Shown here piece after piece: positions 1-31,862 of a DNA stretch of 64,000 bases. Source of the DNA: the human T2T-CHM13v2.0 reference genome, Homo sapiens. The position numbers and the translations under genes are program-made. The stretch is from NCBI GenBank assembly GCA_009914755.4, contig CP086569.2, positions 12,000,001 through 12,064,000 of the forward strand, in the 5' to 3' direction. Within the stretch, counting starts at the first letter, position 1. Every line of letters begins with the position of its first letter. The notes beneath the pieces were generated by a model, which did not search any database, had not been told where the DNA came from, and was given only the letters and a program-made list of their open reading frames with translations.

Positions 1-250
1 AATCGACTGAAATATAATAGACTCGAAAGGAATGGTCTCGAGCGGAATTTATTTGAATAGAACGGAATCAAATGGAATACAATAGTATGGAATGGAATCG
101 AATGGAATGGAATCGAATGGAATGTAATCAAATGGAATGGAACGGAATTCAATATAATGGAGTAGAATGGAATGCATTGGAAAGGAGCAGAGTGGAATCG
201 AGTGGATTGGAATCGAGTGGAATGGAATCAAAGGGAACAAATCAAATTGA
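1..250 (+). repeat. Partial HOR copy (3' end of a unit truncated by the window start)
   Basis: Matches the last about 250 bp of downstream HOR copies, for example 1379-1628. Confidence 0.8.
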
Positions 251-3000: not shown

Positions 3001-4376
3001 ATGGACTTGAATGGAATTGAGTCGAAAGGAATTGACTCGAAAGGAATGGACTGGAACAAAAAGGAATCAAATGGACAGGAATGGAATGGAATGGACTCGA
3101 ATGGAATGGAGTCAAATGCAAACGCATCCAATGGAATGGATTCAAATGGAATGCAATTGAATGGAATAGAAAGGAAGAGAATGGAATTGAGAGTAATGGA
3201 AAGATATCGATTGGAATGAAATGGAATGGAAAGGAATTGAATGGAAAGGAAAGGACTCGAAAGAAATTGGTTGGAATGGAATGGTCTCCAATGGAATGGA
3301 CTGGAGTGGAATGGAATCGAATGGAATGAAAAGAATGGAACGGAATGGAACGGAAAGGAATAGAATGTTATGGAATCCGATTGGACAGAATGGAATGGAA
3401 TGCAGTTTCATGAAATGCAGTCGAATAGAGTGGCATCAAAAGGAATGGAATGAAATGGAGTGGACTCAAAAGGAATGGACTCGAAAGAATGGAGTCGAAC
3501 CAAATTGAATCAAATGGATTGGAGTCGAACAGAATGGAATGGAATGGAATGAACTCGACTGGATTAGAGAGGAATGAAAAGGAATAGAATGGAATGTAAT
3601 CAAATGGATTGGAAGTGAATGGAATCAAAAATAATAGAAAGGAATGGAGTGTAAAGGGATGATATTGAATTAAATGGAATGGAATGGAATTTAATGGAAT
3701 GGAGTCAAAGGAATGGACAGGAATGTAATGGACTCCAATGTAATGGAATGGAACAAAATGGATTTGAACAGATTGGAGTCGAACGGAATGGAATGCAATG
3801 AAATGGAATGGACTCGATCAGAACGGACTGGAGAGGAATGTAAACAAATGGAATGGAAACGAATGGAATGGAATGAAATGGAATGGAATGCAATGGAATT
3901 GAAAGGAACGGAATCAAATGGAATGGAATGGAATGGAATGGATTGGAATAGAATGGATTCAAATAAAATAGAATCGATTGCAATGGTATTGAATGGAAGG
4001 GACTTGAATGGAATGGAAAGCAATGGAAGATATTGGAATCGAATGGCATCGAATGAAATGGAATGGAACGGAATGGAACGGACCCGAATAGAATGGAATG
4101 GACTCAAATGTAATGGACTCGAATGGAATCGACTGAAATATAATAGACTCGAAAGGAATGGTCTCGAGCGGAATTTATTTGAATAGAACGGAATCAAATG
4201 GAATACAATAGTATGGAATGGAATCGAATGGAATGGAATCGAATGGAATGTAATCAAATGGAATGGAACGGAATTCAATATAATGGAGTAGAATGGAATG
4301 CATTGGAAAGGAGCAGAGTGGAATCGAGTGGATTGGAATCGAGTGGAATGGAATCAAAGGGAACAAATCAAATTGA
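3001..4376 (+). repeat. HOR copy 3, 1376 bp
   Basis: Anchor-to-anchor. EcoRI at 4271. Confidence 0.8.
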
Positions 4377-5754
4377 ATGGACTTGAATGGAATTGAGTCA
4401 AAAGGAATTGACTCGAAAGGAATGGACTGGAACAAAAAGGAATCAAATGGACAGGAATGGAATGGAATGGACTCGAATGGAATGGAGTCAAATGCAAACG
4501 CATCCAATGGAATGGATTCAAATGGAATGCAATTGAATGGAATAGAAAGGAAGAGAATGGAATTGAGAGTAATGGAAAGATATCGATTGGAATGAAATGG
4601 AATGGAAAGGAAATGAATGGAAAGGAAAGGACTCGAAAGAAATGGGTTGGAATGGAATGGTCTCCAATGGAATGGACTGGAGTGGAATGGAATCGAATGG
4701 AATGAAAAGAATGGAACGGAATGGAACGGAAAGGAATAGAATGTTATGGAATCCGATTGGACAGAATGGAATGGAATGCAGTTTCATGAAATGGAGTCGA
4801 ATAGAGAGGCATCAAAAGGAATGGAATGGAGTGGACTCAAAAGGAATGGACTCGAAAGGAATGGAGTCGAACAAAATTGAATCAAATGGATTGGAGTCGA
4901 ACAGAATGGAATGGAATGGAATGAACTCGACTGGAGTAGAGAGGAATGAAAAGGAATAGAATGGAATGTAATCAAATGGATTGGAAGTGAATGGAATCAA
5001 AAATAATAGAAAGGAATAGAGTGTAAAAGGATGATATTGAATTAAATGGAATGGAATGGAATTTAATGGAATGGAGTCGAAGGAATGGACAGGAATGTAA
5101 TGGACTCCAATGGAATGGAATGGAACAAAATGGATTTGAACAGATTGGAATAGAACGGAATGGAATGCAATGAAATGGAATGGACTCGATCAGAATGGAC
5201 TGGAGAGTAATGTACACAAATGGAATGGAAACGAATGGAATGGAATGAAGTGGAATGGAATGCAATGGAATTGAAAGGAACGGAATCAAATGGAATGGAA
5301 TGGAATGGAATGGAATGGATTGGAATAGAATGGATTCAAATAAAATAGAATCGATTGCAATGGTATTGAATGGAAGGGACTTGAATGGAATGGAAAGCAA
5401 TGGAAGATATTGGAATTGAATGGCATCGAATGAAATGGAATGGAACAGAATGGAACGGACCCGAATGGAATGGAATGGACTCAAATGTAATGGACTCGAA
5501 TGGAATCGAATGAAATATAATAGACTCGAAAGGAATGGCCTCGAGCGGAATTTATTTGAATAGAATGGAATCAAATGGAATACAATAGTATGGAATGGAA
5601 TCGAATGGAATGGAATCGAATGGAATGTAATCAAATGGAATGGAACGGAATTCAATATAATGGAGTAGAATGGAATGCATTGGAAAGGAGCAGAGTGGAA
5701 TCGAGTGGATTGGAATCGAGTGGAATGGAATCAAAGGGAACGAAATCGAATTGA
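4377..5754 (+). repeat. HOR copy 4, 1378 bp
   Basis: Anchor-to-anchor. Confidence 0.8.
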
Positions 5755-7132
5755 ATGGACTTGAATGGAATTGAGTCGAAAGGAATTGACTCGAAAGGAA
5801 TGGACTGGAACAAAAAGGAATCAAATGGACAGGAATGGAATGGAATGGACTCGAATGGAATGGAGTCAAATGCAAACGCATCGAATGGAATGGATTCAAA
5901 TGGAATGCAATTGAATGGAATAGAAAGGAAGAGAATGGAATTGAGAGTAATGGAAAGATATCGATTGGAATGAAATGGAATGGAAAGGAATTGAATGGAA
6001 AGGAATGGACTCGAAAGAAATGGGTTGGAATGGAATGGTCTCCAATGGAATGGACTGGAGTGGAATGGAATCGAATGGAATGAAAAGAATGGAACGGAAT
6101 GGAACGGAAAGGAATAGAATGTTATGGAATCCGATTGGACAGAATGGAATGGAATGCAGTTTCATGAAATGGAGTCAAATAGAGTGGCATCAAAAGGAAT
6201 GAAATGGAGTGGACTCAAGAGGAATGGACTCGAAAGGAATGGAGTCGAACCAAATTGAATCAAATGGATTGGAGTCGAACAGAATGGAATGGAATGGAAT
6301 GAACGCGACTGGAGTAGAGAGGAATGAAAAGGAATAGAATGGAATGTAATCAAATGGATTGCAAGTGAATGGAATCAAAAATAATAGAAAGGAATGGACT
6401 GTAAAGGGATGATATTGAATTAAATGGAATGGAATGGAATTTAATGGAATGGAGTCGAAGGAATGGACAGGAATGTAATGGACTCCAATGGAATAGAATG
6501 GATCAAAATGGATTTGAACAGATTGGAATCGAACGGAATGGAATGCAATGAAATGGAATGGACTCGATCAGAATGGACTGGAGAGTAATGTACACAAATG
6601 GAATGGAAACGAATGGAATGGAATGAAGTGGAATGGAATGCAATGGAATTGAAAGGAACGGAATCAAATGGAATGGAATGGAATGGAATGGAATGGATTG
6701 GAATAGAATGGATTCAAATAAAATAGAATCGATTGCAATGGTATTGAATGGAAGGGACTTGAATGGAATGGAAAGCAATGGAAGATATTGGAATTGAATG
6801 GCATCGAATGAAATGGAATGGAACAGAATGGAACGGACCCGAATGGAATGGAATGGACTCAAATGTAATGGACTCGAATGGAATCGAATGAAATATAATA
6901 GACTCGAAAGGAATGGCCTCGATTGGAATTTATTTGAATAGAATGGAATCAAATGGAATACAATAGTATGGAATGGAATCGAATGGAATGGAATCGAATG
7001 GAATGTAATCAAATGGAATGGAACGGAATTCAATATAATGGAGTAGAATGGAATGCATTGGAAAGGAGCAGAGTGGAATCGAGTGGATTGGAATCGAGTG
7101 GAATGGAATCAAAGGGAATGAAATCGAATTGA
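5755..7132 (+). repeat. HOR copy 5, 1378 bp (first unit of the duplicated six-HOR block)
   Basis: Anchor-to-anchor. Near-identical to 14007-15384. Confidence 0.8.
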
Positions 7133-8504
7133 ATGGACTTGAATGGAATTGAGTCGAAAGGAATTGACTCGAAAGGAATGGACTGGAACAAAAAGGAATC
7201 AAATGGACAGGAATGGAATGGAATGGACTCGAATGGAATGGAGTCAAATGCAAACGCATCGAATGGAATGGATTCAAATGGAATGCAATTGAATGGAATA
7301 GAAAGGAAGAGAATGGAATTGAGAGTAATGGAAAGATATCGATTGGAATGAAATGGAATGGAAAGGAATTGAATGGAAAGGAATGGACTCGAAAGAAATG
7401 GATTGGAATGGAATGGTCTCCAATGGAATGGACTGGAGTGGAATGGAATCGAATGGAAAGAAAAGAATGGAACGGAATGGAACGGAAAGGAATAGAATGT
7501 TATGGAATCCGATTGGAGAGAATGGAATGGAATGCAGTTTCATGAAATGGAGTCGAATAGAGTGGCATCAAAAGGAATGGAATGGAGTGGACTCAAAAGG
7601 AATAGACTCGAAAGGAATGGAGTCGAACAAAATTGAATCAAAAGGATTGGAGTCGAACAGAATGGAATGGAATGGAATGAACTCGACTGGAGTAGAGAGG
7701 AATGAAAAGGAATAGAATGGAATGTAATCAAATGGATTGCAAGTGAATGGAATCAAAAATAATAGAAAGGAATGGAGTGTAAAGGGATGATATTGAATTA
7801 AATGGAATGGAATGGAATTTAATGGAATGGAGTCGAAGGAATGGACAGGAATGTAATGGACTCCAATGGAATAGAATGGATCAAAATGGATTTGAACAGA
7901 TTGGAATCGAACGGAATGGAATGCAATGAAATGGAATGGACTCGATCAGAACGGACTGGAGAGGAATGTACACAAATGGAATGGAAACGAAAGGAATGGA
8001 ATGAAAGGGAATAGAATGCAATGTAATTGAAAGGAACGGAATCAAATGGAATGGAATGGAATGGAATGGATTGGAATAGAATGGATTCAAATAAATAGAA
8101 TCGATTGCAATGGTATTGAATGGAAGGGACTTGAATGGAATGGAAAGCAATGGAAGATATTGGAATCGAATGGCATCAAATGAAATGGAATGGAACGGAA
8201 TGGAACGGACCCGAATGGAATGGAATGGACTCAAATGTAATGGACTCGAATGGAATCAACTGAAATATAATAGACTCGAAAGGAATGGCCTCGAGCGGAA
8301 TTTATTTGAATAGAATGGAATCAAATGGAATACAATAGTATGGAATGGAATCAAATGGAATGGAATCGAATGGAATGTAATCAAATGGAATGGAACGGAA
8401 TTCAATATAATGGAGTAGAATGGAATGCATTGGAAAGGAGCAGAGTGGAATCGAGTGGATTGGAATCGAGTGGAATGGAATCAAAGGGAACGAAATCGAA
8501 TTGA
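7133..8504 (+). repeat. HOR copy 6, 1372 bp
   Basis: Anchor-to-anchor. Near-identical to 15385-16756. Confidence 0.8.
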
Positions 8505-9887
8505 ATGGACTTGAATGGAATTGAGTCGAAAGGAATTGACTCGAAAGGAATGGACTGGAACAAAAAGGAATCAAATGGACAGGAATGGAATGGAATGGAC
8601 TCGAATGGAATGTAGTCAAATGCAAACGCATCGAATGGAATGGATTCAAATGGAATGCAATTGAATGGAATAGAAAGGAAGAGAATGGAATTGAGAGTAA
8701 TGGAAAGATATCGATTGGAATGAAATGGAATGGAAAGGAATTGAATGGAAAGGAATGGACTCGAAAGAAATGGGTTGGAATGGAATGGTCTCCAATGGAA
8801 TGGACTGGAGTGGAATGGAATCGAATGGAATGAAAAGAATGGAACGGAATGGAACGGAAAGGAATAGAATGTTATGGAATCCGATTGGACAGAATGGAAT
8901 GGAATGCAGTTTCATGAAATGGAGTCAAATAGGGTGGCATCAAAAGGAATGGAATGGAGTGGACTCAAGAGGAATGGACTCGAAAGGAATGGAGTCGAAC
9001 CAAATTGAATCAAATGGATTGGAGTCGAACAGAATGGAATGGAATGGAATGAACTCGACTGGAGTAGAGAGGAATGAAAAGGAATAGAATGGAATGTAAT
9101 CAAATGGATTGCAAGTGAATGGAATCAAAAATAATAGAAAGGAATGGAGTGTAAAGGGATGATATTGAATTAAATGGAATGGAATGGAATTTAATGGAAT
9201 GGAGTCGAAGGAATGGACAGGAATGTAATGGACTCCAATGGAATGGAATGGATGAAAATGGATTAGAACAGATTGGAATAGAACGGAATGGAATGCCATG
9301 AAATGGAATGGACTCGATCAGAATGGACTGGAGAGGAATGTACACAAATGGAATGGAAACGTATGGAATGCAATGAAATGGAATGGAATGCAATGGAATT
9401 GAAAGGAACGGAATCAAATGGAATGGAATGGAATGGCATGGAATGGAATGGATTGGAATAGAATGGATTCAAATAAAATAGAATCGATTGCAATGGTATT
9501 GAATGGAAGGGACTTGAATGGAATGGAAAGCAATGGAAGATATTGGAATCGAATGGCATCGCATGAAATGGAATGGAACGGAATGGAACGGACCCGAATG
9601 GAATGGAATGGACTCAAATGTAATGGACTCGAATGGAATCGACTGAAATATAATAGACTCGAAAAGAATGGCCTCGAGCGGAATTTATTTGAATATAATA
9701 GAATGAAATGGAATACAATAGTATGGAATGGAATCGAATGGAATGGAATCGAATGGAATGTAATCAAATGGAATGGAACGGAATTCAATATAATGGAGTA
9801 GAATGGAATGCATTGGAAAGGAGCAGAGTGGAATCGAGTGTATTGGAATCGAGTGGAATGGAATCAAAGGGAACAAAATCAAATTGA
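8505..9887 (+). repeat. HOR copy 7, 1383 bp
   Basis: Anchor ATG at 8505. Six-unit pentamer run near 9421-9450. Near-identical to 16757-18139. Confidence 0.8.
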
Positions 9888-11260
9888 ATGGACTTGAATG
9901 GAATTGAGTCGAAAGGAATTGACTCGAAAGGAATGGACTGGAACAAAAAGGAATCAAATGGACAGGAATGGAATGGAATGGACTCGAACGGAATGGAGTC
10001 AAATGCAAACGCATCGAATGGAATGGATTCAAATGGAATGCAATTGAATGGAATAGAAAGGAAGAGAATGGAATTGAGAGTAATGGAAAGATATCGATTG
10101 GAATGAAATGGAATGGAAAGGAATTGAATGGAAAGGAATGGACTCGAAAGAAATGGGTTGGAATGGAATGGTCTCCAATGGAATGGACTGGAGTGGAATG
10201 GAATCGAATGGAATGAAAAGAATGGAACGGAATGGAACGGAAAGGAATAGAATGTTATGGAATCCGATTGGACAGAATGGAATGGAATGCAGTTTCATGA
10301 AATGGAGTCAAATAGAGTGGCAACAAAAGGAATGGAATGGAGTGGACTCAAGAGGAATGGACTCGGAAGGATTGGAGTCGAACCAAATTGAATCAAATGG
10401 ATTGGAGTCGAACAGAATGGAATGGAATGGAATGAACTCGACTGGAGTAGAGAGGAATGAAAAGGAATAGAATGGAATGTAATCAAATGGATTACAAGTG
10501 AATGGAATCAAAAATAATAGAAAGGAATGGAGTGTAAAGGGATGATATTGAATTAAATGGAATGGAATGGAATTTAATGGAATGGAGTCGAAGGAATGGA
10601 CAGGAATGTAATGGACTCCAATGGAATGGAATGGATGAAAATGGATTAGAACAGATTGGAATAGAACGGAATGGAATGCCATGAAATGGAATGGACTCGA
10701 TCAGAACGGACTGGAGAGGAATGTACACAAATGGAATGGAAACGAATGGAATGCAATGAAATGGAATGCAATGCAATGGAATTGAAAGGAACGGAATCAA
10801 ATGGAATGGAATGGAATGGAATGGATTGGAATAGAATGGATTCAAATAAAATAGAATCGATTGCAATGGTATTGAATGGAAGGGACTTGAATGGAATGGA
10901 AAGCAATGGAAGATATTGGAATCGAATGGCATTGAATGAAATGGAATGGAACGGAATGGAACGGACCCGAATGGTATGGAATGGACTCAAATGTAATGGA
11001 CTCGAATGGAATCGACTGAAATATAATAGACTCGAAAGGAATGGCCTCGAGCGGAATTTATTTGAATAGAATGGAATCAAATGGAATACAATAGTATAGA
11101 ATGGAATCAAATGGAATGGAATCGAATGGAATGTAATCAAATGGAATGGAACGGAATTCAATATAATGGAGTAGAATGGAATGCATTGGAAAGGAGCAGA
11201 GTGGAATCGAGTGGATTGGAATCGAGTGGAATGGAATCAAAGGGAACGAAATCGAATTGA
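9888..11260 (+). repeat. HOR copy 8, 1373 bp
   Basis: Anchor-to-anchor. Equals 18140-19512. Confidence 0.8.
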
Positions 11261-12633
11261 ATGGACTTGAATGGAATTGAGTCGAAAGGAATTGACTTGA
11301 AAGGAATGGACTGGAACAAAAAGGAATCAAATGGACAGGAATGGAATGGAATGGACTCGAATGGAATGGAGTCAAATGCAAACGCATCGAATGGAATGGA
11401 TTCAAATGGAATGCAATTGAATGGAATAGAAAGGAAGAGAATGGAATTGAGAGTAATGGAAAGATATCGATTGGAATGAAATGGAATGGAAAGGAATTGA
11501 ATGGAAAGGAATGGACTCGAAAGAAATGGATTGGAATGGAATGGTCTCCAATGGAATGGACTGGAGTGGAATGCAATCGAATGGAAAGAAAAGAATGGAA
11601 CGGAATGGAATGGAAAGGAATAGAATGTTATGGAATCCGATTGAACAGAATGGAATGGAATGCAGTTTCATGAAATGGAGTCGAATAGTGTGGCATGAAA
11701 AAAAATGGAATGGAGTGGACTCAAAAGGAATGGACTCGAAAGGAATGGAGTCGAACCAAATTGAATCAAATGGATTGGAGTCGAACAGAATGGAATGGAA
11801 TGGAATGAACTCGACTGGAGTAGAGAGGAATGAAAAGGAATAGAATGGAATGTAATCAAATGGATTGCAAGTGAATGGAATCAAAAATAATAGAAAGGAA
11901 TGGAGTGTAAAGGGATGATACTGAATTAAATGGAATAGAATGGAATTTAATGGAATGGAGTCGAAGGAATGGACAGGAATGTAATGGACTCCAATGGAAT
12001 GGAATGGATCAAAATGGATTTGAACTGATTGGAATCGAACGGAATGGAATGCAGTGAAATGGAATGGACTCGATCAGAACGGACTGGAGAGGAATGTACA
12101 CAAATGGAATGGAAACGAATGGAATGGAATGAAATGGAATGGAATGCAATGGAATTGAAAGGAACGGAATCAAATGGAATGGAATGGAATGGAATGGATT
12201 GGAATAGAATGGATTCAAATAAAATAGAATCGATTGCAATGGTATTGAATGGAAGGGACTTGAATGGAATGGAAAGCAATGGAAGATATTGGAAACGAAT
12301 GGCATCGAATGAAATGGAATGGAACGGAATGGAACGGACCCGAATGGAATGGAATGGACTCAAATGTAATGGACTCGAATGGAATCGACTGAAATATAAT
12401 AGACTCGAAAGGAATGGCCTCGAGCGGAATTTATTTGAATAGAATGGAATCAAATGGAATACAATAGTATAAAATGGAATCGAATGGAATGGAATCGAAT
12501 GGAATGTAATCAAACGGAATGGAACGGAATTCAATATAATGGAGTAGAATGGAATGCATTGGAAAGGAGCAGAGTGGAATCGAGTGGATTGGAATCGAGT
12601 GGAATGGAATCAAAGGGAACGAAATCGAATTGA
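11261..12633 (+). repeat. HOR copy 9, 1373 bp
   Basis: Anchor-to-anchor. Equals 19513-20885. Confidence 0.8.
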
Positions 12634-14006
12634 ATGGACTTGAATGGAATTGAGTCGAAAGGAATTGACTCGAAAGGAATGGACTGGAAGAAAAAGGAAT
12701 CAAATGGACAGGAGTGGAATGGAATGGACTCGAACGGAATGGAGTCAAATGGAAACGCATCGAATGGAATGGATTCAAATGGAATGCAATTGAATGGAAT
12801 AGAAAGGAAGAGAATGGAATTGAGAGTAATGGAAAGATATCGATTGGAATGAAATGGAATGGAAAGGAATTGAATGGAAAGGAATGGACTCGAAAGAAAT
12901 GGATTGGAATGCAATGGTCTCCAATGGAATGGACTGGAGTGGAATGGAAACGAATGGAATGAAAAGAATGGAACGGAATGGAACGGAAAGGAATAGAATG
13001 TTATGGAATCCGATTGGACAGAATGGAATGGAATGGAGTTTCATGAAATGGAGTGGAATAGAGTGGCATCAAAAGGAATGGAATGGAGTGGACTCAAAAG
13101 GAATGGACTCGAAAGGAATGGAGTCGAACCAAATTGAATCAAATGGATTGGAGTCGAACAGAATGGAATGGAATGGAATGAACTCGACTGGAGTAGAGAG
13201 GAATGAAAAGGAATAGAATGGAATGTAATCAAATGGATTGCAAATGAATGGAATCAAAAATAATAGAAAGGAATGGAGTGTAAAGGGATGATATTGAATT
13301 AAATGGAATGGAATGGAATTTAATGGAATGGAGTCGAAGGAATGGACAGGAATGTAATGGACTCCTATGGAATAGAATGGATCAAAATGGATTTGAACAG
13401 ATTGGAATCGAACGGAATGGAATGCAATGAAATGGAATGGACTCGATCAGAACGGACTGGAGAGTAATGTACACAAATGGAATGGAAACGAAAGGAATGC
13501 AATGAAAAGGAATGGAATGCAATGGAATTGAAAGGAACGGAATCAAATGGAATGGAATGGAATGGAATGGATTGGAATAGAATGGATTCAAATAAAATAG
13601 AATCGATTGCAATGGTATTGAATGGAAGGGACTTGAATGGAATGGAAAGCAATGGAAGATATTGGAATCGAATGGCATCGAATGAAATGGAATGGAACGG
13701 AATGGAACGGACCCGAATGGTATGGAATGGACTCAAATGTAATGGACTCGAATGGAATCGACTGAAATATAATAGACTCGAAAGGAATGGCCTCGAGCGG
13801 AATTTATTTGAATAGAATGGAATCAAATGGAATACAATAGTATAGAATGGAATCAAATGGAATGGAATCGAATGGAATGTAATCAAATGGAATGGAACGG
13901 AATTCAATATAATGGAGTAGAATGGAATGCATTGGAAAGGAGCAGAGTGGAATCGAGTGGATTGGAATCGAGTGGAATGGAATCAAAGGGAACGAAATCG
14001 AATTGA
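12634..14006 (+). repeat. HOR copy 10, 1373 bp
   Basis: Anchor-to-anchor. Equals 20886-22258. Confidence 0.8.
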
Positions 14007-15384
14007 ATGGACTTGAATGGAATTGAGTCGAAAGGAATTGACTCGAAAGGAATGGACTGGAACAAAAAGGAATCAAATGGACAGGAATGGAATGGAATGG
14101 ACTCGAATGGAATGGAGTCAAATGCAAACGCATCGAATGGAATGGATTCAAATGGAATGCAATTGAATGGAATAGAAAGGAAGAGAATGGAATTGAGAGT
14201 AATGGAAAGATATCGATTGGAATGAAATGGAATGGAAAGGAATTGAATGGAAAGGAATGGACTCGAAAGAAATGGGTTGGAATGGAATGGTCTCCAATGG
14301 AATGGACTGGAGTGGAATGGAATCGAATGGAATGAAAAGAATGGAACGGAATGGAACGGAAAGGAATAGAATGTTATGGAATCCGATTGGACAGAATGGA
14401 ATGGAATGCAGTTTCATGAAATGGAGTCAAATAGAGTGGCATCAAAAGGAATGAAATGGAGTGGGCTCAAGAGGAATGGACTCGAAAGGAATGGAGTCGA
14501 ACCAAATTGAATCAAATGGATTGGAGTCGAACAGAATGGAATGGAATGGAATGAACGCGACTGGAGTAGAGAGGAATGAAAAGGAATAGAATGGAATGTA
14601 ATCAAATGGATTGCAAGTGAATGGAATCAAAAATAATAGAAAGGAATGGACTGTAAAGGGATGATATTGAATTAAATGGAATGGAATGGAATTTAATGGA
14701 ATGGAGTCGAAGGAATGGACAGGAATGTAATGGACTCCAATGGAATAGAATGGATCAAAATGGATTTGAACAGATTGGAATCGAACGGAATGGAATGCAA
14801 TGAAATGGAATGGACTCGATCAGAATGGACTGGAGAGTAATGTACACAAATGGAATGGAAACGAATGGAATGGAATGAAGTGGAATGGAATGCAATGGAA
14901 TTGAAAGGAACGGAATCAAATGGAATGGAATGGAATGGAATGGAATGGATTGGAATAGAATGGATTCAAATAAAATAGAATCGATTGCAATGGTATTGAA
15001 TGGAAGGGACTTGAATGGAATGGAAAGCAATGGAAGATATTGGAATTGAATGGCATCGAATGAAATGGAATGGAACAGAATGGAACGGACCCGAATGGAA
15101 TGGAATGGACTCAAATGTAATGGACTCGAATGGAATCGAATGAAATATAATAGACTCGAAAGGAATGGCCTCGATTGGAATTTATTTGAATAGAATGGAA
15201 TCAAATGGAATACAATAGTATGGAATGGAATCGAATGGAATGGAATCGAATGGAATGTAATCAAATGGAATGGAACGGAATTCAATATAATGGAGTAGAA
15301 TGGAATGCATTGGAAAGGAGCAGAGTGGAATCGAGTGGATTGGAATCGAGTGGAATGGAATCAAAGGGAATGAAATCGAATTGA
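14007..15384 (+). repeat. HOR copy 11, 1378 bp
   Basis: Anchor-to-anchor. Second copy of the unit at 5755-7132. Confidence 0.8.
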
Positions 15385-16756
15385 ATGGACTTGAATGGAA
15401 TTGAGTCGAAAGGAATTGACTCGAAAGGAATGGACTGGAACAAAAAGGAATCAAATGGACAGGAATGGAATGGAATGGACTCGAATGGAATGGAGTCAAA
15501 TGCAAACGCATCGAATGGAATGGATTCAAATGGAATGCAATTGAATGGAATAGAAAGGAAGAGAATGGAATTGAGAGTAATGGAAAGATATCGATTGGAA
15601 TGAAATGGAATGGAAAGGAATTGAATGGAAAGGAATGGACTCGAAAGAAATGGATTGGAATGGAATGGTCTCCAATGGAATGGACTGGAGTGGAATGGAA
15701 TCGAATGGAAAGAAAAGAATGGAACGGAATGGAACGGAAAGGAATAGAATGTTATGGAATCCGATTGGAGAGAATGGAATGGAATGCAGTTTCATGAAAT
15801 GGAGTCGAATAGAGTGGCATCAAAAGGAATGGAATGGAGTGGACTCAAAAGGAATAGACTCGAAAGGAATGGAGTCGAACAAAATTGAATCAAAAGGATT
15901 GGAGTCGAACAGAATGGAATGGAATGGAATGAACTCGACTGGAGTAGAGAGGAATGAAAAGGAATAGAATGGAATGTAATCAAATGGATTGCAAGTGAAT
16001 GGAATCAAAAATAATAGAAAGGAATGGAGTGTAAAGGGATGATATTGAATTAAATGGAATGGAATGGAATTTAATGGAATGGAGTCGAAGGAATGGACAG
16101 GAATGTAATGGACTCCAATGGAATAGAATGGATCAAAATGGATTTGAACAGATTGGAATCGAACGGAATGGAATGCAATGAAATGGAATGGACTCGATCA
16201 GAACGGACTGGAGAGGAATGTACACAAATGGAATGGAAACGAAAGGAATGGAATGAAAGGGAATAGAATGCAATGTAATTGAAAGGAACGGAATCAAATG
16301 GAATGGAATGGAATGGAATGGATTGGAATAGAATGGATTCAAATAAATAGAATCGATTGCAATGGTATTGAATGGAAGGGACTTGAATGGAATGGAAAGC
16401 AATGGAAGATATTGGAATCGAATGGCATCAAATGAAATGGAATGGAACGGAATGGAACGGACCCGAATGGAATGGAATGGACTCAAATGTAATGGACTCG
16501 AATGGAATCAACTGAAATATAATAGACTCGAAAGGAATGGCCTCGAGCGGAATTTATTTGAATAGAATGGAATCAAATGGAATACAATAGTATGGAATGG
16601 AATCAAATGGAATGGAATCGAATGGAATGTAATCAAATGGAATGGAACGGAATTCAATATAATGGAGTAGAATGGAATGCATTGGAAAGGAGCAGAGTGG
16701 AATCGAGTGGATTGGAATCGAGTGGAATGGAATCAAAGGGAACGAAATCGAATTGA
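15385..16756 (+). repeat. HOR copy 12, 1372 bp
   Basis: Anchor-to-anchor. Confidence 0.8.
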
Positions 16757-18139
16757 ATGGACTTGAATGGAATTGAGTCGAAAGGAATTGACTCGAAAGG
16801 AATGGACTGGAACAAAAAGGAATCAAATGGACAGGAATGGAATGGAATGGACTCGAATGGAATGTAGTCAAATGCAAACGCATCGAATGGAATGGATTCA
16901 AATGGAATGCAATTGAATGGAATAGAAAGGAAGAGAATGGAATTGAGAGTAATGGAAAGATATCGATTGGAATGAAATGGAATGGAAAGGAATTGAATGG
17001 AAAGGAATGGACTCGAAAGAAATGGGTTGGAATGGAATGGTCTCCAATGGAATGGACTGGAGTGGAATGGAATCGAATGGAATGAAAAGAATGGAACGGA
17101 ATGGAACGGAAAGGAATAGAATGTTATGGAATCCGATTGGACAGAATGGAATGGAATGCAGTTTCATGAAATGGAGTCAAATAGGGTGGCATCAAAAGGA
17201 ATGGAATGGAGTGGACTCAAGAGGAATGGACTCGAAAGGAATGGAGTCGAACCAAATTGAATCAAATGGATTGGAGTCGAACAGAATGGAATGGAATGGA
17301 ATGAACTCGACTGGAGTAGAGAGGAATGAAAAGGAATAGAATGGAATGTAATCAAATGGATTGCAAGTGAATGGAATCAAAAATAATAGAAAGGAATGGA
17401 GTGTAAAGGGATGATATTGAATTAAATGGAATGGAATGGAATTTAATGGAATGGAGTCGAAGGAATGGACAGGAATGTAATGGACTCCAATGGAATGGAA
17501 TGGATGAAAATGGATTAGAACAGATTGGAATAGAACGGAATGGAATGCCATGAAATGGAATGGACTCGATCAGAATGGACTGGAGAGGAATGTACACAAA
17601 TGGAATGGAAACGTATGGAATGCAATGAAATGGAATGGAATGCAATGGAATTGAAAGGAACGGAATCAAATGGAATGGAATGGAATGGAATGGAATGGAA
17701 TGGATTGGAATAGAATGGATTCAAATAAAATAGAATCGATTGCAATGGTATTGAATGGAAGGGACTTGAATGGAATGGAAAGCAATGGAAGATATTGGAA
17801 TCGAATGGCATCGCATGAAATGGAATGGAACGGAATGGAACGGACCCGAATGGAATGGAATGGACTCAAATGTAATGGACTCGAATGGAATCGACTGAAA
17901 TATAATAGACTCGAAAAGAATGGCCTCGAGCGGAATTTATTTGAATATAATAGAATGAAATGGAATACAATAGTATGGAATGGAATCGAATGGAATGGAA
18001 TCGAATGGAATGTAATCAAATGGAATGGAACGGAATTCAATATAATGGAGTAGAATGGAATGCATTGGAAAGGAGCAGAGTGGAATCGAGTGTATTGGAA
18101 TCGAGTGGAATGGAATCAAAGGGAACAAAATCAAATTGA
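16757..18139 (+). repeat. HOR copy 13, 1383 bp
   Basis: Anchor ATG at 16757. Six-unit pentamer run near 17673-17702. Confidence 0.8.
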
Positions 18140-19512
18140 ATGGACTTGAATGGAATTGAGTCGAAAGGAATTGACTCGAAAGGAATGGACTGGAACAAAA
18201 AGGAATCAAATGGACAGGAATGGAATGGAATGGACTCGAACGGAATGGAGTCAAATGCAAACGCATCGAATGGAATGGATTCAAATGGAATGCAATTGAA
18301 TGGAATAGAAAGGAAGAGAATGGAATTGAGAGTAATGGAAAGATATCGATTGGAATGAAATGGAATGGAAAGGAATTGAATGGAAAGGAATGGACTCGAA
18401 AGAAATGGGTTGGAATGGAATGGTCTCCAATGGAATGGACTGGAGTGGAATGGAATCGAATGGAATGAAAAGAATGGAACGGAATGGAACGGAAAGGAAT
18501 AGAATGTTATGGAATCCGATTGGACAGAATGGAATGGAATGCAGTTTCATGAAATGGAGTCAAATAGAGTGGCAACAAAAGGAATGGAATGGAGTGGACT
18601 CAAGAGGAATGGACTCGGAAGGATTGGAGTCGAACCAAATTGAATCAAATGGATTGGAGTCGAACAGAATGGAATGGAATGGAATGAACTCGACTGGAGT
18701 AGAGAGGAATGAAAAGGAATAGAATGGAATGTAATCAAATGGATTACAAGTGAATGGAATCAAAAATAATAGAAAGGAATGGAGTGTAAAGGGATGATAT
18801 TGAATTAAATGGAATGGAATGGAATTTAATGGAATGGAGTCGAAGGAATGGACAGGAATGTAATGGACTCCAATGGAATGGAATGGATGAAAATGGATTA
18901 GAACAGATTGGAATAGAACGGAATGGAATGCCATGAAATGGAATGGACTCGATCAGAACGGACTGGAGAGGAATGTACACAAATGGAATGGAAACGAATG
19001 GAATGCAATGAAATGGAATGCAATGCAATGGAATTGAAAGGAACGGAATCAAATGGAATGGAATGGAATGGAATGGATTGGAATAGAATGGATTCAAATA
19101 AAATAGAATCGATTGCAATGGTATTGAATGGAAGGGACTTGAATGGAATGGAAAGCAATGGAAGATATTGGAATCGAATGGCATTGAATGAAATGGAATG
19201 GAACGGAATGGAACGGACCCGAATGGTATGGAATGGACTCAAATGTAATGGACTCGAATGGAATCGACTGAAATATAATAGACTCGAAAGGAATGGCCTC
19301 GAGCGGAATTTATTTGAATAGAATGGAATCAAATGGAATACAATAGTATAGAATGGAATCAAATGGAATGGAATCGAATGGAATGTAATCAAATGGAATG
19401 GAACGGAATTCAATATAATGGAGTAGAATGGAATGCATTGGAAAGGAGCAGAGTGGAATCGAGTGGATTGGAATCGAGTGGAATGGAATCAAAGGGAACG
19501 AAATCGAATTGA
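18140..19512 (+). repeat. HOR copy 14, 1373 bp
   Basis: Anchor-to-anchor. Confidence 0.8.
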
Positions 19513-20885
19513 ATGGACTTGAATGGAATTGAGTCGAAAGGAATTGACTTGAAAGGAATGGACTGGAACAAAAAGGAATCAAATGGACAGGAATGGAATG
19601 GAATGGACTCGAATGGAATGGAGTCAAATGCAAACGCATCGAATGGAATGGATTCAAATGGAATGCAATTGAATGGAATAGAAAGGAAGAGAATGGAATT
19701 GAGAGTAATGGAAAGATATCGATTGGAATGAAATGGAATGGAAAGGAATTGAATGGAAAGGAATGGACTCGAAAGAAATGGATTGGAATGGAATGGTCTC
19801 CAATGGAATGGACTGGAGTGGAATGCAATCGAATGGAAAGAAAAGAATGGAACGGAATGGAATGGAAAGGAATAGAATGTTATGGAATCCGATTGAACAG
19901 AATGGAATGGAATGCAGTTTCATGAAATGGAGTCGAATAGTGTGGCATGAAAAAAAATGGAATGGAGTGGACTCAAAAGGAATGGACTCGAAAGGAATGG
20001 AGTCGAACCAAATTGAATCAAATGGATTGGAGTCGAACAGAATGGAATGGAATGGAATGAACTCGACTGGAGTAGAGAGGAATGAAAAGGAATAGAATGG
20101 AATGTAATCAAATGGATTGCAAGTGAATGGAATCAAAAATAATAGAAAGGAATGGAGTGTAAAGGGATGATACTGAATTAAATGGAATAGAATGGAATTT
20201 AATGGAATGGAGTCGAAGGAATGGACAGGAATGTAATGGACTCCAATGGAATGGAATGGATCAAAATGGATTTGAACTGATTGGAATCGAACGGAATGGA
20301 ATGCAGTGAAATGGAATGGACTCGATCAGAACGGACTGGAGAGGAATGTACACAAATGGAATGGAAACGAATGGAATGGAATGAAATGGAATGGAATGCA
20401 ATGGAATTGAAAGGAACGGAATCAAATGGAATGGAATGGAATGGAATGGATTGGAATAGAATGGATTCAAATAAAATAGAATCGATTGCAATGGTATTGA
20501 ATGGAAGGGACTTGAATGGAATGGAAAGCAATGGAAGATATTGGAAACGAATGGCATCGAATGAAATGGAATGGAACGGAATGGAACGGACCCGAATGGA
20601 ATGGAATGGACTCAAATGTAATGGACTCGAATGGAATCGACTGAAATATAATAGACTCGAAAGGAATGGCCTCGAGCGGAATTTATTTGAATAGAATGGA
20701 ATCAAATGGAATACAATAGTATAAAATGGAATCGAATGGAATGGAATCGAATGGAATGTAATCAAACGGAATGGAACGGAATTCAATATAATGGAGTAGA
20801 ATGGAATGCATTGGAAAGGAGCAGAGTGGAATCGAGTGGATTGGAATCGAGTGGAATGGAATCAAAGGGAACGAAATCGAATTGA
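19513..20885 (+). repeat. HOR copy 15, 1373 bp
   Basis: Anchor-to-anchor. Confidence 0.8.
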
Positions 20886-22258
20886 ATGGACTTGAATGGA
20901 ATTGAGTCGAAAGGAATTGACTCGAAAGGAATGGACTGGAAGAAAAAGGAATCAAATGGACAGGAGTGGAATGGAATGGACTCGAACGGAATGGAGTCAA
21001 ATGGAAACGCATCGAATGGAATGGATTCAAATGGAATGCAATTGAATGGAATAGAAAGGAAGAGAATGGAATTGAGAGTAATGGAAAGATATCGATTGGA
21101 ATGAAATGGAATGGAAAGGAATTGAATGGAAAGGAATGGACTCGAAAGAAATGGATTGGAATGCAATGGTCTCCAATGGAATGGACTGGAGTGGAATGGA
21201 AACGAATGGAATGAAAAGAATGGAACGGAATGGAACGGAAAGGAATAGAATGTTATGGAATCCGATTGGACAGAATGGAATGGAATGGAGTTTCATGAAA
21301 TGGAGTGGAATAGAGTGGCATCAAAAGGAATGGAATGGAGTGGACTCAAAAGGAATGGACTCGAAAGGAATGGAGTCGAACCAAATTGAATCAAATGGAT
21401 TGGAGTCGAACAGAATGGAATGGAATGGAATGAACTCGACTGGAGTAGAGAGGAATGAAAAGGAATAGAATGGAATGTAATCAAATGGATTGCAAATGAA
21501 TGGAATCAAAAATAATAGAAAGGAATGGAGTGTAAAGGGATGATATTGAATTAAATGGAATGGAATGGAATTTAATGGAATGGAGTCGAAGGAATGGACA
21601 GGAATGTAATGGACTCCTATGGAATAGAATGGATCAAAATGGATTTGAACAGATTGGAATCGAACGGAATGGAATGCAATGAAATGGAATGGACTCGATC
21701 AGAACGGACTGGAGAGTAATGTACACAAATGGAATGGAAACGAAAGGAATGCAATGAAAAGGAATGGAATGCAATGGAATTGAAAGGAACGGAATCAAAT
21801 GGAATGGAATGGAATGGAATGGATTGGAATAGAATGGATTCAAATAAAATAGAATCGATTGCAATGGTATTGAATGGAAGGGACTTGAATGGAATGGAAA
21901 GCAATGGAAGATATTGGAATCGAATGGCATCGAATGAAATGGAATGGAACGGAATGGAACGGACCCGAATGGTATGGAATGGACTCAAATGTAATGGACT
22001 CGAATGGAATCGACTGAAATATAATAGACTCGAAAGGAATGGCCTCGAGCGGAATTTATTTGAATAGAATGGAATCAAATGGAATACAATAGTATAGAAT
22101 GGAATCAAATGGAATGGAATCGAATGGAATGTAATCAAATGGAATGGAACGGAATTCAATATAATGGAGTAGAATGGAATGCATTGGAAAGGAGCAGAGT
22201 GGAATCGAGTGGATTGGAATCGAGTGGAATGGAATCAAAGGGAACGAAATCGAATTGA
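20886..22258 (+). repeat. HOR copy 16, 1373 bp
   Basis: Anchor-to-anchor. Confidence 0.8.
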
Positions 22259-23626
22259 ATGGACTTGAATGGAATTGAGTCGAAAGGAATTGACTCGAAA
22301 GGAATGGACTGGAACAAAAAGGAATCAAATGGACAGGAATGGAATGGAATGGACTCGAATGGAATGGAGTCAAATGCAAACGCATCGAATGGAATGGATT
22401 CAAATGGAATGCAATTGAATGGAATAGAAAGGAAGAGAATGGAATTGAGAGTAATGGAAAGATATCGATTGGAATGAAATGGAATGGAAAGGAATTGAAT
22501 GGAAAGGAATGGACTCGAAAGAAATGGATTGGAATGGAATGGTCTCCAATGGAATGGACTGGAGTGGAATGCAATCGAATGGAAAGAAAAGAATGGAACG
22601 GAATGGAATGGAAAGGAATAGAATGTTATGGAATCCGATTGAACAGAATGGAATGGAATGCAGTTTCATGAAATGGAGTCGAATAGAGTGGCATCAAAAG
22701 GAATGGAATGGAGTGGACTCAAAAGGAATGGACTCGAAAGGAATGGAGTCGAACCAAATTGAATCAAATGGATTGGAGTCGAACAGAATGGAATGGAATG
22801 GAATGAACTCGACTGGAGTAGAGAGGAATGAAAAGGAATAGAATGGAATGTAATCAAATGGATTGCAAGTGAATGGAATCAAAAATAATAGAAAGGAATG
22901 GAGTGTAAAGGGATGATACTGAATTAAATGGAATGGAATGGAATTTAATGGAATGGAGTCGAAGGAATGGACAGGAATGTAATGGACTCCAATGGAATGG
23001 AATGGATCAAAATGGATTTGAACAGATTGAAATCGAACGGAATGGAATGCAATGAAATGGAATGGACTCGATCAGAACGGACTGGAGAGGAATGTACACA
23101 AATGGAATGGAAACGAAAGGAATGGAATGAAATGGAATGGAATGCAATGGAATTGAAAGGAACGGAATCAAATGGAATGGAATGGAATGGATTGGAATAG
23201 AATGGATTCAAATAAAATAGAATCGATTGCAATGGTATTGAATGGAAGGGACTTGAATGGAATGGAAAGCAATGGAAGATATTGGAATCGAATGGCATCG
23301 AATGAAATGGAATGGAACGGAATGGAACGGACCCGAATGGAATGGAATGGACTCAAATGTAATGGACTCGAATGGAATCGACTGAAATATAATAGACTCG
23401 AAAGGAATGGCCTCGAGCGGAATTTATTTGAATAGAATGGAATCAAATGGAATACAATAGTATAGAAAGGAATCGAATGGAATGGAATCGAATGGAATGT
23501 AATCAAATGGAATGGAACGGAATTCAATATAATGGAGTAGAATGGAATGCATTGGAAAGGAGCAGAGTGGAATCGAGTGGATTGGAATCGAGTGGAATGG
23601 AATCAAAGGGAACGAAATCGAATTGA
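22259..23626 (+). repeat. HOR copy 17, 1368 bp
   Basis: Anchor-to-anchor. Only three GGAAT units in the internal run near 23166-23185. Confidence 0.8.
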
Positions 23627-24999
23627 ATGGACTTGAATGGAATTGAGTCGAAAGGAATTGACTCGAAAGGAATGGACTGGAACAAAAAGGAATCAAATGG
23701 ACAGGAATGGAATGGAATGGACTCGAATGGAATGGAGTCAAATGCAAACGCATCGAATGGAATAGATTCAAATGGAATGCAATTGAATGGAATAGAAAGG
23801 AAGAGAATGGAATTGAGAGTAATGGAAAGATATCGATTGGAATGAAATGGAATGGAAAGGAATTGAATGGAAAGGAATGGACTCGAAAGAAATGGATTGG
23901 AATGGAATGGTCTCCAATGGAATGGACTGGAGTGGAATGCAATCGAATGGAAAGAAAAGAATGGAACGGAATGGAATGGAAAGGAATAGAATGTTATGGA
24001 ATCCGATTGAACAGAATGGAATGGAATGCAGTTTCATGAAATGGAGTCGAATAGAGTGGCATCAAAAGGAATGGAATGGAGTGGACTCAAAAGGAATGGA
24101 CTCGAAAGGAATGGAGTCGAACCAAATTGAATCAAATGGATTGGAGTCGAACAGAATGGAATGGAATGGAATGAACTCGACTGGAGTAGAGAGGAATGAA
24201 AAGGAATAGAATGGAATGTAATCAAATGGATTGCAAGTGAATGGAATCAAAAATAATAGAAAGGAATGGAGTGTAAAGGGATGATACTGAATTAAATGGA
24301 ATGGAATGGAATTTAATGGAATGGAGTCGAAGGAATGGACAGGAATGTAATGGACTCCAATGGAATGGAATGGATCAAAATGGATTTGAAGAGATTGGAA
24401 TGGAACGGAATGGAATGCAATGAAATGGAATGGACTCGATCAGAACGGACTGGAGAGGAATGTACACAAATGGAATGGAAACGAAAGGAATGGAATGAAA
24501 TGGAATGGAATGCAATGGAATTGAAAGGAACGGAATCAAATGGAATGGAATGGAATGGAATGGATTGGAATAGAATGGATTCAAATAAAATAGAATCGAT
24601 TGCAATGGTATTGAATGGAAGGGACTTGAATGGAATGGAAAGCAATGGAAGATATTGGAATCGAATGGCATCGAATGAAATGGAATGGAACGGAATGGAA
24701 CGGACCCGAATGGAATGGAATGGACTCAAATGTAATGGACTCGAATGGAATCGACTGAAATATAATAGACTCGAAAGGAATGGCCTCGAGCGGAATTTAT
24801 TTGAATAGAATGGAATCAAATGGAATACAATAGTATAAAATGGAATCGAATGGAATGGAATCGAATGGAATGTAATCAAACGGAATGGAACGGAATTCAA
24901 TATAATGGAGTAGAATGGAATGCATTGGAAAGTAGCAGAGTGGAATCGAGTGGATTGGAATCGATTGGAATGGAATCAAAGGGAACGAAATCGAATTGA
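23627..24999 (+). repeat. HOR copy 18, 1373 bp
   Basis: Anchor-to-anchor. Confidence 0.8.
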
Positions 25000-26370
25000 A
25001 TGGACTTGAATGGAATTGAGTCGAAAGGAATTGACTCAAAAGGAATGGACTGGAACAAAAAGGAATCAAATGGACAGGAATGGAATGGAATGGACTCGAA
25101 TGGAATGGAGTCAATGCAAACGCATCGAATGGAATGGATTCAAATGGAATGCAATTGAATGGAATAGAAAGGAAGAGAATGGAATTGAGAGTAATGGAAA
25201 GATATCGATTGGAATGAAATGGAATGGAAAGGAATTGAATGGAAAGGAATGGACTCGAAAGAAATGGATTGGAATGGAATGGTCTCCAATGGAATGGACT
25301 GGAGTGGAATGCAATCGAATGGAAAGAAAAGAATGGAACGGAATGGAATGGAAAGGAATAGAATGTTATGGAATCCGATTGAACAGAATGGAATGGAATG
25401 CAGTTTCATGAAATGGAGTCGAATAGAGTGGTATAAAAGGAATGGAATGGAGTGGACTCAAAAGGAATGGACTCGAAAGGAATGGAGTCGAACCAAATTG
25501 AATCAAATGGATTGGAGTCGAACAGAATGGAATGGAATGGAATGAACTCGACTGGAGTAGAGAGGAATGAAAAGGAATAGAATGGAATGTAATCAAATGG
25601 ATTGCAAGTGAATGGAATCAAAAATAATAGAAAGGAATGGAGTGTAAAGGGATGATATTGAATTAAATGGAATGGAATGGAATTTAATGGAATGGAGTCG
25701 AAGGAATGGACAGGAATGTAATGGACTCCAATGGAATGGAATGGATCAAAATGTATTTGAACAGATTGGAATCGAACGGAATGGAATGCAATGAAATGGA
25801 ATGGACTCGATCAGAACGGACTGGAGAGGAATGTACACAAATGGAATGGAAACGAAAGGAATGGAATGAAATGGAATGGAATGCAATGGAATTGAAAGGA
25901 ACGGAATCAAATGGAATGGAATGGAATGGAATGGATTGGCATAGAATGGATTCAAATAAAATAGAATCGATTGCAATGGTATTGAATGGAAGGGACTTGA
26001 ATGGAATGGAAAGCAATGGAAGATATTGGAATCGAATGGCATCGAATGAAATGGAATGCAACGGAATGGAACGGACCCGAATGGTATGGAATGGACTCAA
26101 ATGTAATGGACTCGAATGGAATCGACTGAAATATAATAGACTCGAAAGGAATGGCCTCGAGCGGAATTTATTTGAATAGAATGGAATCAAATGGAATACA
26201 ATAGTATGGAATGGAATCGAATGGAATGGAATCGAATGGAATGTAATCAAATGGAATGGAACGGAATTCAATATAATGGAGTAGAATGGAATGCATTGGA
26301 AAGGAGCAGAGTGGAATCGAGTGGATTGGAATCGAGTGGAATGGAATCAAAGGGAACGAAATCGAATTGA
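25000..26370 (+). repeat. HOR copy 19, 1371 bp
   Basis: Anchor ATG at 25000. Carries a 1-bp deletion (gtcaatgcaaacg instead of gtcaaatgcaaacg) near 25113. Confidence 0.8.
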
Positions 26371-31145: not shown

Positions 31146-31862
31146 GATATTGAATTAAATGGAATGGAATGGAATTTAATGGAATGGAGTCGAAGGAATG
31201 GACAGGAATGTAATGGACTCCAATGGAATGGAATGGATCAAAATGGATTTGAACAGATTGGAATGGAACGGAATGGAATGCAATGAAATGGAGTGGACTC
31301 GATCAGAACGGACTGGAGAGGAATGTACACAAATGGAATGGAAACGAAAGGAATGGAATGAAATGGAATGGAATGCAATGGAATTGAAAGGAACGGAATC
31401 AAATGGAATGGAATGGAATGGAATGGATTGGAATAGAATGGATTCAAATAAAATAGAATCGATTGCAATGGTATTGAATGGAAGGGACTTGAATGGAATG
31501 GAAAGCAATGGAAGATATTGGAATCGAATGGCATCGAATGAAATGGAATGGAACGGAATGGAACGGACCCGAATGGAATGGAATGGACTCAAATGTAATG
31601 GACTCGAATGGAATCGACTGAAATATAATAGACTCGAAAGGAATGGCCTCAAGCGGAATTTATTTGAATAGAATGGAATCAAATGGAATACAATAGTATA
31701 GAATGGAATCGAATGGAATGGAATCGAATGGAATGTAATCAAATGGAATGGAACGGAATTCAATATAATGGAGTAGAATGGAATGCATTGGAAAGGAGCA
31801 GAGTGGAATCGAGTGGATTGGAATCGAGTGGAATGGAATCAAAGGGAACGAAATCGAATTGA
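30490..31862 (+). repeat. HOR copy 23, 1373 bp
   Basis: Anchor-to-anchor. Confidence 0.8.

What the first reader, a model, noticed from the sequence alone, without database searches (positions are those of the whole stretch)
5600..22500. Near-perfect tandem duplication of an 8252-bp (six-HOR) block
Two adjacent copies differ by only a handful of bases in 8.25 kb, for example MAWNG/MEWNG at 9437 vs 17689 and EPTPFHSF/ESTPFHSF at 14442. Neighbouring HORs elsewhere differ by about 1-2%. This indicates a very recent unequal-crossover or duplication event that created a local super-HOR of 6 units. Alternatively it is an assembly artifact.
Basis: seen in the sequence. Interest (0 to 1): 0.6.

Follow-up and report, generated by a model that had tools for sequence, protein, structure and literature searches.

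The report
Recent 8.25-kb duplication in satellite array
Inside a human pentameric (GGAAT)n satellite array, most likely the Y-chromosome HSat3A3 type, a block of six 1.37-kb repeat units has been copied once in tandem almost perfectly, which is real in the sequence but is the ordinary way such arrays grow.

Summary
At offset 8252, window 5604-14275 matches 13856-22527 without gaps. That is 8672 bp with 2 substitutions and no indels (99.977%). Other six-unit comparisons in the window differ at 59-150 positions.

Each of the six unit pairs shares 4-15 alleles found in no other unit. Each copy carries one private substitution. Similarity drops to about 97% at both ends. The junction lies in a 420-bp tract that is identical in many units.

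The window is one 64-kb (GGAAT)n array of 1373/1378-bp units. The published HSat3A3 (Y-specific) diagnostic 24-mer is exact in 38 of 46 units. Contigs from human gut and skin metagenomes match the units at 99.0-99.5%.

Best reading: one recent tandem duplication by unequal sister-chromatid exchange or replication template switching within homologous repeats. There are only about 2.05 copies, so it is not a "super-HOR". Smaller near-identical duplications occur elsewhere in the window.

This mode of satellite evolution is well described in the T2T and Y-chromosome papers, so interest is low. An assembly artefact cannot be excluded without reads, but the two copy-specific substitutions argue against it.

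The parts
1..64000 (+). Host array. It is an uninterrupted (GGAAT)n-derived satellite (HSat3-type) made of 46 complete units, mostly 1373 bp (24 units) or 1378 bp (14 units). The G-rich strand is the + strand.
   Evidence: GC is uniformly 0.38-0.39 and GC skew about +0.58 in every 2-kb bin. TRF finds periods of 10, 15 and 25 across 55-63980. The best self-offsets are 1373 and 1378, and the unit segmentation is. The HSat3A3 diagnostic 24-mer is exact in 38 units, all on the minus strand.
5604..13855 (+). Copy 1 of the duplicated block (8252 bp, six units). The phase is arbitrary within the 420-bp junction tract.
13856..22107 (+). Copy 2 of the duplicated block (8252 bp).
22108..22527 (+). Third copy of the 420-bp junction homology tract. 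It is identical to 5604-6023 and 13856-14275. The exchange point lies somewhere inside this tract and cannot be placed more finely.
   Evidence: Identity at offset 8252 runs on for 8672 bp, which is 420 bp more than one period. At least 14 other unit boundaries in the window carry the tract with 0 mismatches.
9437..9437 (+). Substitution private to copy 1. It is C here, while the paired site 17689 and all other 44 units have A.
14465..14465 (+). Substitution private to copy 2. It is G here, while the paired site 6213 and all other 44 units have A.

Best explanation
This is a real, evolutionarily recent, one-step tandem duplication of a six-unit (8252-bp) segment inside a human HSat3 array. The array is most likely the Y-specific HSat3A3 subfamily in pericentromeric Yq11.1, in or next to DYZ17.

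Proposed mechanism: two sister chromatids, or a replicating strand and its template, paired out of register by six units. The pairing sat on a 420-bp stretch that is identical in many units. An exchange or template switch inside that stretch produced a chromatid carrying the six units twice.

Each copy has since gained one point mutation. The duplication has no coding or RNA content. Its only effect is to lengthen the array by 8.25 kb.

Shown: the two copies, their exact register, the shared private alleles, the sharp edges, the homology tract, and one private substitution per copy.

Inferred: the molecular mechanism, the Y location, and the age. The age is roughly 150 kyr (95% Poisson range about 18-550 kyr), assuming a Y mutation rate of about 0.8e-9 per bp per year. 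That rate comes from my own knowledge.
For: - 8672 bp match without gaps at offset 8252, with 2 substitutions and 0 indels.
- The six unit pairs differ by 1, 0, 1, 0, 0 and 0 positions, against about 21 per unit in the lag-6 background. Poisson P is about 1.5e-51, and the next-best independent six-unit comparison has 59 differences.
- The paired units share 4-15 alleles each that no other unit has. They also share the rare unit lengths 1372 and 1383 bp.
- The two differences are singletons, one in each copy, against A in the other 45 units. This is what post-duplication mutation predicts.
- The edges are abrupt. To the left, mismatches fall at 5603, 5592, 5510, 5469, 5447 and 5417. To the right, they fall at 14276, 14320, 14333, 14357 and 14390.
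- The 420-bp junction tract is a conserved part of the unit, with 0 mismatches at 14 or more other boundaries. Out-of-register homologous pairing there is therefore easy.
- The same process has acted elsewhere in the window. A 2-unit tandem copy spans 3088 bp with 1 mismatch. Other near-identical segments are 3755, 1901 and 1432 bp long.
- Origin: the 'most common HSat3A3-specific 24-mer' of Altemose 2014 (PMC4022460, Table 1, localisation Y only) is exact in 38 of 46 units. The 24-mers of the other 13 subfamilies have no exact match.
- Contigs from human gut and other human-associated metagenomes match the units at 99.0-99.5%.
[quoted passage not shown] DYZ17 ranges from 858 kb to 1.74 Mb among 43 Y assemblies (10.1101/2022.12.01.518658). 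Zones of recent duplication with identical neighbouring repeats are described in T2T centromeres (10.1101/2021.07.12.452052).
Against: - No reads are available, so the assembly cannot be checked.
- The sequence alone cannot separate a copy-number-increasing exchange from a long conversion tract that overwrote six pre-existing units.
- It also cannot separate unequal sister-chromatid exchange from replication-based mechanisms.
- The Y/HSat3A3 assignment rests on one published diagnostic 24-mer plus contigs that look like human contamination. It does not rest on a mapped position.
- The age estimate assumes a euchromatic Y mutation rate and no later conversion between the copies.
Confidence: 0.8

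Rival explanations
1. Long-tract, non-reciprocal homogenisation. Six pre-existing units were overwritten by their six neighbours through gene conversion or break-induced replication, with no change in array length.
For: The end product, two near-identical adjacent six-unit blocks with sharp edges in homologous sequence, would look the same. A 2026 preprint reports gene-conversion-like events in Y heterochromatin (10.64898/2026.06.03.729890).
Against: It needs a continuous tract of 8.25 kb or more in exact six-unit register. From my own knowledge, that is far longer than typical mammalian conversion tracts. No patchy or mosaic conversion pattern is visible: there are only 2 isolated singleton differences across 8.25 kb. 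The documented size variation of Y arrays shows that copy-number-changing events are common.
Confidence: 0.1
2. Assembly artefact. A single six-unit block was falsely placed twice in tandem by the assembler.
For: Satellite arrays are the hardest regions to assemble. The copies are 99.977% identical. No read data can be examined here.
Against: The copies are not identical. Each has one private, non-homopolymer-indel substitution absent from all 45 other units, so each consensus seems to rest on distinct molecules. If the locus is Y-linked, and so haploid, no second haplotype exists to be mis-stacked. A two-copy span of 16.9 kb is within single long-read length, which is an inference from my own knowledge. 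Comparable smaller duplications elsewhere in the window show this is a property of the array.
Confidence: 0.07
3. The similarity is only background homogeneity of the array, or comes from constraint on the sequence, and does not reflect a discrete event.
For: Some unit pairs elsewhere are also very similar: 22/24 are identical and 38/46 differ by 1.
Against: Six consecutive pairs at one lag with 2 differences in total compares with 59 for the next-best independent window and a median of 149.5. Poisson P is about 1.5e-51. Units inside the block differ from each other by 24-36 positions. No ORF of 250 aa or more and no Rfam family is present, so nothing suggests constraint.
Confidence: 0.01

Closest known systems
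Human satellite 3, subfamily HSat3A3 (Y-specific; Altemose et al. 2014), in the pericentromeric Yq11.1 HSat3/DYZ17 region
   Same: The array is derived from the (GGAAT)/(CATTC) pentamer and lacks HSat2-type motifs. The published most common HSat3A3-specific 24-mer is exact in 38 of 46 units. Contigs from human-associated metagenomes match the units at 99.0-99.5%.
   Different: I could not map the window to a chromosome position. I also found no published statement that this array has a 1373/1378-bp unit. The T2T-Y figure that lists periodicities is not held as text. Whether the window lies in the 'HSat3' block or in DYZ17 proper is undetermined.
Zones of recent duplication, or macro-repeats, in T2T satellite arrays (Altemose et al. 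2021/2022; Rhie et al. 2023 for Yq12)
   Same: Identical or near-identical repeat copies sit close together inside an older, more diverged array. The published explanation is unequal exchange.
   Different: This case is much smaller: 8.25 kb and two copies. The published examples span hundreds of kb to 5 Mb. It also lies in HSat3A3, not in alpha satellite or DYZ1/DYZ2.
Classical unequal crossing-over model of tandem-repeat evolution (Smith 1976; cited from my own knowledge)
   Same: Out-of-register homologous exchange gives a tandem duplication whose period is a whole number of repeat units and whose junction is hidden in homology. That is exactly what is seen here.
   Different: If the array is on the male-specific Y, the partners must be sister chromatids or the same chromatid, not homologues.

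Membership tests
Human satellite 3 (HSat3) | Built from diverged tandem (CATTC)n / (GGAAT)n pentamers | tested here: met
   TRF finds periods of 10, 15 and 25 with GGAAT-based consensus units across 55-63980. There are 3888 exact GGAAT pentamers in 64 kb.
Human satellite 3 (HSat3) | Not HSat2: lacks the 23/26-bp HSat2 structure and the HSat2-specific 24-mers | tested here: met
   ATCATC occurs 0 times. The HSat2A1, HSat2A2 and HSat2B 24-mers have 0 matches, the latter two even with 2 substitutions allowed.
HSat3A3 subfamily (Y-specific) | [quoted passage not shown] | tested here: met
   CTTTACACTCCATTCCTTTCTATT is exact in 38 of 46 units and matches 44 times with 1 mismatch or fewer. No other subfamily's listed 24-mer is exact. 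Only the one 24-mer per subfamily printed in Table 1 could be tested, because the full library (Dryad Dataset S2) is not available here.
HSat3A3 subfamily (Y-specific) | Located on the human Y chromosome | not testable with these tools
   No human reference genome can be searched here. There is only indirect support: contigs from human gut and skin metagenomes match at 99.0-99.5%, and the genome-contig scan found nothing.
Tandem duplication by unequal homologous exchange | Two head-to-tail copies whose period is a whole number of base repeat units | tested here: met
   8252 = 1378+1372+1383+3x1373 bp. The copies abut directly.
Tandem duplication by unequal homologous exchange | Junction lies within a tract of perfect homology, and the edges are sharp | tested here: met
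   There is a 420-bp identical tract at 5604-6023, 13856-14275 and 22108-22527. Divergence jumps to about 3% immediately outside it.
Tandem duplication by unequal homologous exchange | Copies share derived variants absent from the rest of the array | tested here: met
   Each unit pair has 4-15 pair-private alleles, 46 alignment columns in total.
Tandem duplication by unequal homologous exchange | Copy-number gain confirmed against an ancestral or allelic state, or by spanning reads | not testable with these tools
   No reads and no other assemblies of this locus are available.
Higher-level periodic repeat ('super-HOR' of six units) | The six-unit period recurs in three or more copies, or as a regular periodicity of the array | tested here: not met
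   There are only about 2.05 copies. Lag-6 differences outside units 5-16 are 6-36 per unit (mean 21), the same as at other lags.
Assembly false duplication | Copies are identical, or differ only by error-type changes, and read depth is halved | tested here: inconclusive
   There are two clean substitutions, one private to each copy, and no indels. Read depth cannot be tested.

The most novel reading that the evidence does not exclude
The duplication may be a young, population-polymorphic structural variant of the Y pericentromeric HSat3A3/DYZ17 array. The two post-duplication substitutions would date it to somewhere within or near the human Y-chromosome coalescent, at roughly 18-550 kyr. It would then mark particular Y haplogroups. 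Together with the smaller duplications in the window, it could also help calibrate the rate and size spectrum of unequal sister-chromatid exchange in a non-recombining satellite.
Probability: 0.35. Interest if true: 0.2.

Novelty: already known. Interest (0 to 1): 0.1.

Why it matters
It matters little on its own. It is a clean, small example of how pentameric satellite arrays expand. The exchange tract can be bounded to 420 bp, and each copy has one private mutation. If the locus is Y-linked, the event must be intrachromosomal and could serve as a datable marker of array turnover. The process, its signature and its prevalence in human and Y satellites are already documented in the T2T centromere and Y-chromosome papers. 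No gene, RNA or regulatory element is involved.

Tried and rejected
- The repeat finder on 4000-24000 (two searches were parameter errors) was swamped by thousands of 300-nt pentamer-phase matches and could not show the 8-kb repeat. It did report no inverted repeats.
- TRF has a 500-bp period limit, so it sees only the periods of 10, 15, 24 and 25. Custom offset scans replaced both tools. One search missed the main duplication because of a pre-filter I had set too strictly, which fixed.
- The classical HSat3 10-mer CAACCCGAAT is absent, with 0 matches even allowing 1 mismatch.
- Rfam gave no hit at gathering thresholds.
- There are no ORFs of 250 aa or more.
- The genome-contig scan for a unit-specific 25-mer returned 0 loci.
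- The metagenome scan returned 22 short-read contigs, none long or reliable enough to span the duplication. Several run from this unit into more divergent HSat3 and may be chimeric.
- Literature searches for a published unit length of about 1.37 kb for this array found nothing specific. Warburton 2008 lists 3360- and 5630-bp HORs in Yq11.1 GAATG arrays and a 65-kb 'HOR' GAATG array at 4p11. I considered 4p11, but the HSat3A3 24-mer result favours Y.
Full report
**What the window is.** All 64 kb are one uninterrupted satellite. GC is 0.38-0.39 and GC skew about +0.58 in every 2-kb bin. Tandem Repeats Finder reports periods of 10, 15 and 25 built on GGAAT across 55-63980. The strongest long self-offsets are 1373 and 1378 bp. 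Walking an 80-bp anchor through the window gives 46 complete units. Twenty-four are 1373 bp and 14 are 1378 bp, and a few are 1368, 1371, 1372, 1376 or 1383 bp. There is no ORF of 250 aa or more, no Rfam family and no long inverted repeat.

**Checking the observation.**
- At offset 8252, window 5604-14275 equals 13856-22527 without gaps, apart from 6213 A / 14465 G and 9437 C / 17689 A. That is 8672 bp, 2 substitutions, 0 indels, 99.977% identity.
Both quoted peptide differences are reproduced.
- The block is units 5-10, of 1378+1372+1383+1373+1373+1373 = 8252 bp, followed by units 11-16 with the same lengths.
- In a MAFFT alignment of all 46 units, pairs 5/11 to 10/16 differ by 1, 0, 1, 0, 0 and 0 positions. 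Neighbouring units differ by 10-36 (mean 21.6, about 1.6%), and units within the block differ by 24-36.
- Of 820 six-unit comparisons at all lags, this one scores 2. The next independent one scores 59 and the median is 149.5. A Poisson tail for 126 expected differences is about 1.5e-51.
- The two longest exact self-matches in the window (4838 and 3223 bp) are the two stretches between the mismatches.

**Anatomy of the event.**
- Each of the six unit pairs shares 4-15 alleles seen in no other unit (46 alignment columns in all). The pairs also share the rare 1372- and 1383-bp length variants. They are therefore paired by descent.
- Each of the two differences is a singleton. At 9437 only copy 1 has C, and at 14465 only copy 2 has G. 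All other 45 units have A at both columns. So each copy acquired one private change after the copying.
- The near-identity runs 420 bp beyond one period. As a result 5604-6023, 13856-14275 and 22108-22527 are identical.
- Immediately outside, mismatches resume at the usual density. They fall at 5603, 5592, 5510, 5469, 5447 and 5417 on the left, and at 14276, 14320, 14333, 14357 and 14390 on the right.
- That 420-bp tract is a conserved part of the unit. At least 14 other unit boundaries carry it with 0 mismatches. The extension is thus the stretch of pre-existing perfect homology in which the out-of-register exchange took place, and the breakpoint cannot be placed more finely.
- There is no third copy. 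Lag-6 similarity outside units 5-16 is ordinary.

**Context within the window.** The same kind of event has occurred repeatedly at smaller scale.

| Segments | Length | Offset | Mismatches |
|---|---|---|---|
| 28166-31253 vs 30912-33999 (2-unit tandem copy; units 22 and 24 identical) | 3088 bp | 2746 | 1 |
| 39490-43244 vs 53245-56999 (10 units apart) | 3755 bp | 13755 | 6 |
| 50961-52861 vs 61965-63865 | 1901 bp | 11004 | 1 |
| 58445-59876 vs 62569-64000 (cut by the window end) | 1432 bp | 4124 | 0 |

Units 1-10 are more diverged from one another (mean 29.5 differences) than units 17-46 (mean 17.9). The 8.25-kb duplication therefore sits in the more heterogeneous part of the array.

**Origin.**
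- Table 1 of Altemose et al. [quoted passage not shown]
- The HSat3A3 24-mer, CTTTACACTCCATTCCTTTCTATT, is exact in 38 of 46 units, always on the minus strand. None of the other 13 is exact.
- That paper localises HSat3A3 to the Y chromosome only.
- A unit-specific 25-mer retrieved 22 metagenome contigs, including ones labelled human gut and human skin. Three of them (L003, L007, L022) match units at 99.0-99.5%.
- The T2T-Y paper notes that Y HSat3 is a common contaminant of microbial databases.

I therefore take the window to be human HSat3A3, most likely from pericentromeric Yq11.1. Hallast et al. describe an HSat3 array of 372-488 kb there, followed by DYZ17 of 0.86-1.74 Mb. I could not determine which of the two arrays holds the window, nor confirm the chromosome directly.

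**Mechanism.** The pattern has four features: a whole number of units, a head-to-tail arrangement, a junction buried in homology, and sharp edges. This is the textbook signature of unequal homologous exchange. If the locus is on the male-specific Y, the partners must be sister chromatids, or a nascent strand switching template. [quoted passage not shown] The T2T centromere paper describes zones of recent duplication with identical neighbouring repeats. DYZ17 size varies twofold among 43 men. With 2 differences in 8252 bp and a Y rate of about 0.8e-9 per bp per year (my own knowledge), the age is about 150 kyr, with a Poisson 95% range of about 18-550 kyr. This is about 90-fold younger than the divergence between neighbouring units, but not necessarily 'very recent' on a population scale.

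**Rivals.**
- A conversion-like overwrite of six existing units would leave the same sequence. It needs a tract of 8.25 kb or more in perfect register and shows no mosaicism. I give it about 0.1.
- An assembly false duplication cannot be excluded without reads. However, the two clean, copy-private substitutions, the probable haploidy of the locus and the presence of similar smaller events argue against it. I give it about 0.07.
- Background homogeneity is excluded.

**Verdict.** The finding is accurate and its interpretation is essentially right, apart from the 'super-HOR' label, since there are only two copies. 'Nested tandem repeat' is also the current term for these units. It is an ordinary instance of a well-documented process, so interest is low.

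Noticed in passing
window 28166-33999: There is a second, smaller tandem duplication. 28166-31253 equals 30912-33999 at offset 2746 (two units), with 1 mismatch in 3088 bp. Units 22 and 24 are identical and share 7 pair-private alleles.
   Followed up: partly
window 39490-43244 vs 53245-56999: A non-adjacent, near-identical segment lies ten units away (offset 13755): 3755 bp with 6 mismatches. Units 30/40 differ by 3 and units 31/41 by 2. This suggests an older and larger duplication, since partly eroded.
   Followed up: partly
window 50961-52861, 58445-59876, 61965-64000: Units 38, 43 and 46 are near-identical (1-5 differences). One match is 1901 bp with 1 mismatch at offset 11004. Another is 1432 bp and exact at offset 4124, and it runs into the window end, so it may continue beyond it.
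   Followed up: no
window 251-22258 vs 22259-63491: The array has two zones. Units 1-10 are mutually more diverged (mean 29.5 differences per unit) than units 17-46 (mean 17.9). In the homogeneous zone, 1373- and 1378-bp unit types partly alternate. This looks like the layered or domain structure described for other satellites.
   Followed up: partly
whole window, minus strand, e.g. 7761-7784, 9133-9156: The published most common HSat3A3 (Y-specific) diagnostic 24-mer is exact in 38 of 46 units. This points to a human Y-chromosome pericentromeric origin.
   Followed up: yes
loci L001-L022 (metagenome contigs): Contigs from human gut, human skin and other metagenome assemblies carry this satellite unit. 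L003, L007 and L022 match at 99.0-99.5%, which implies male host DNA contamination. Several longer contigs match for only 1-1.8 kb at one end and then run into more divergent HSat3. That is either an array edge or a short-read chimera.
   Followed up: partly
whole window: Most unit-length variants differ by multiples of 5 bp (1368, 1373, 1378, 1383), as expected from pentamer slippage. A few do not (1371, 1372, 1376).
   Followed up: no
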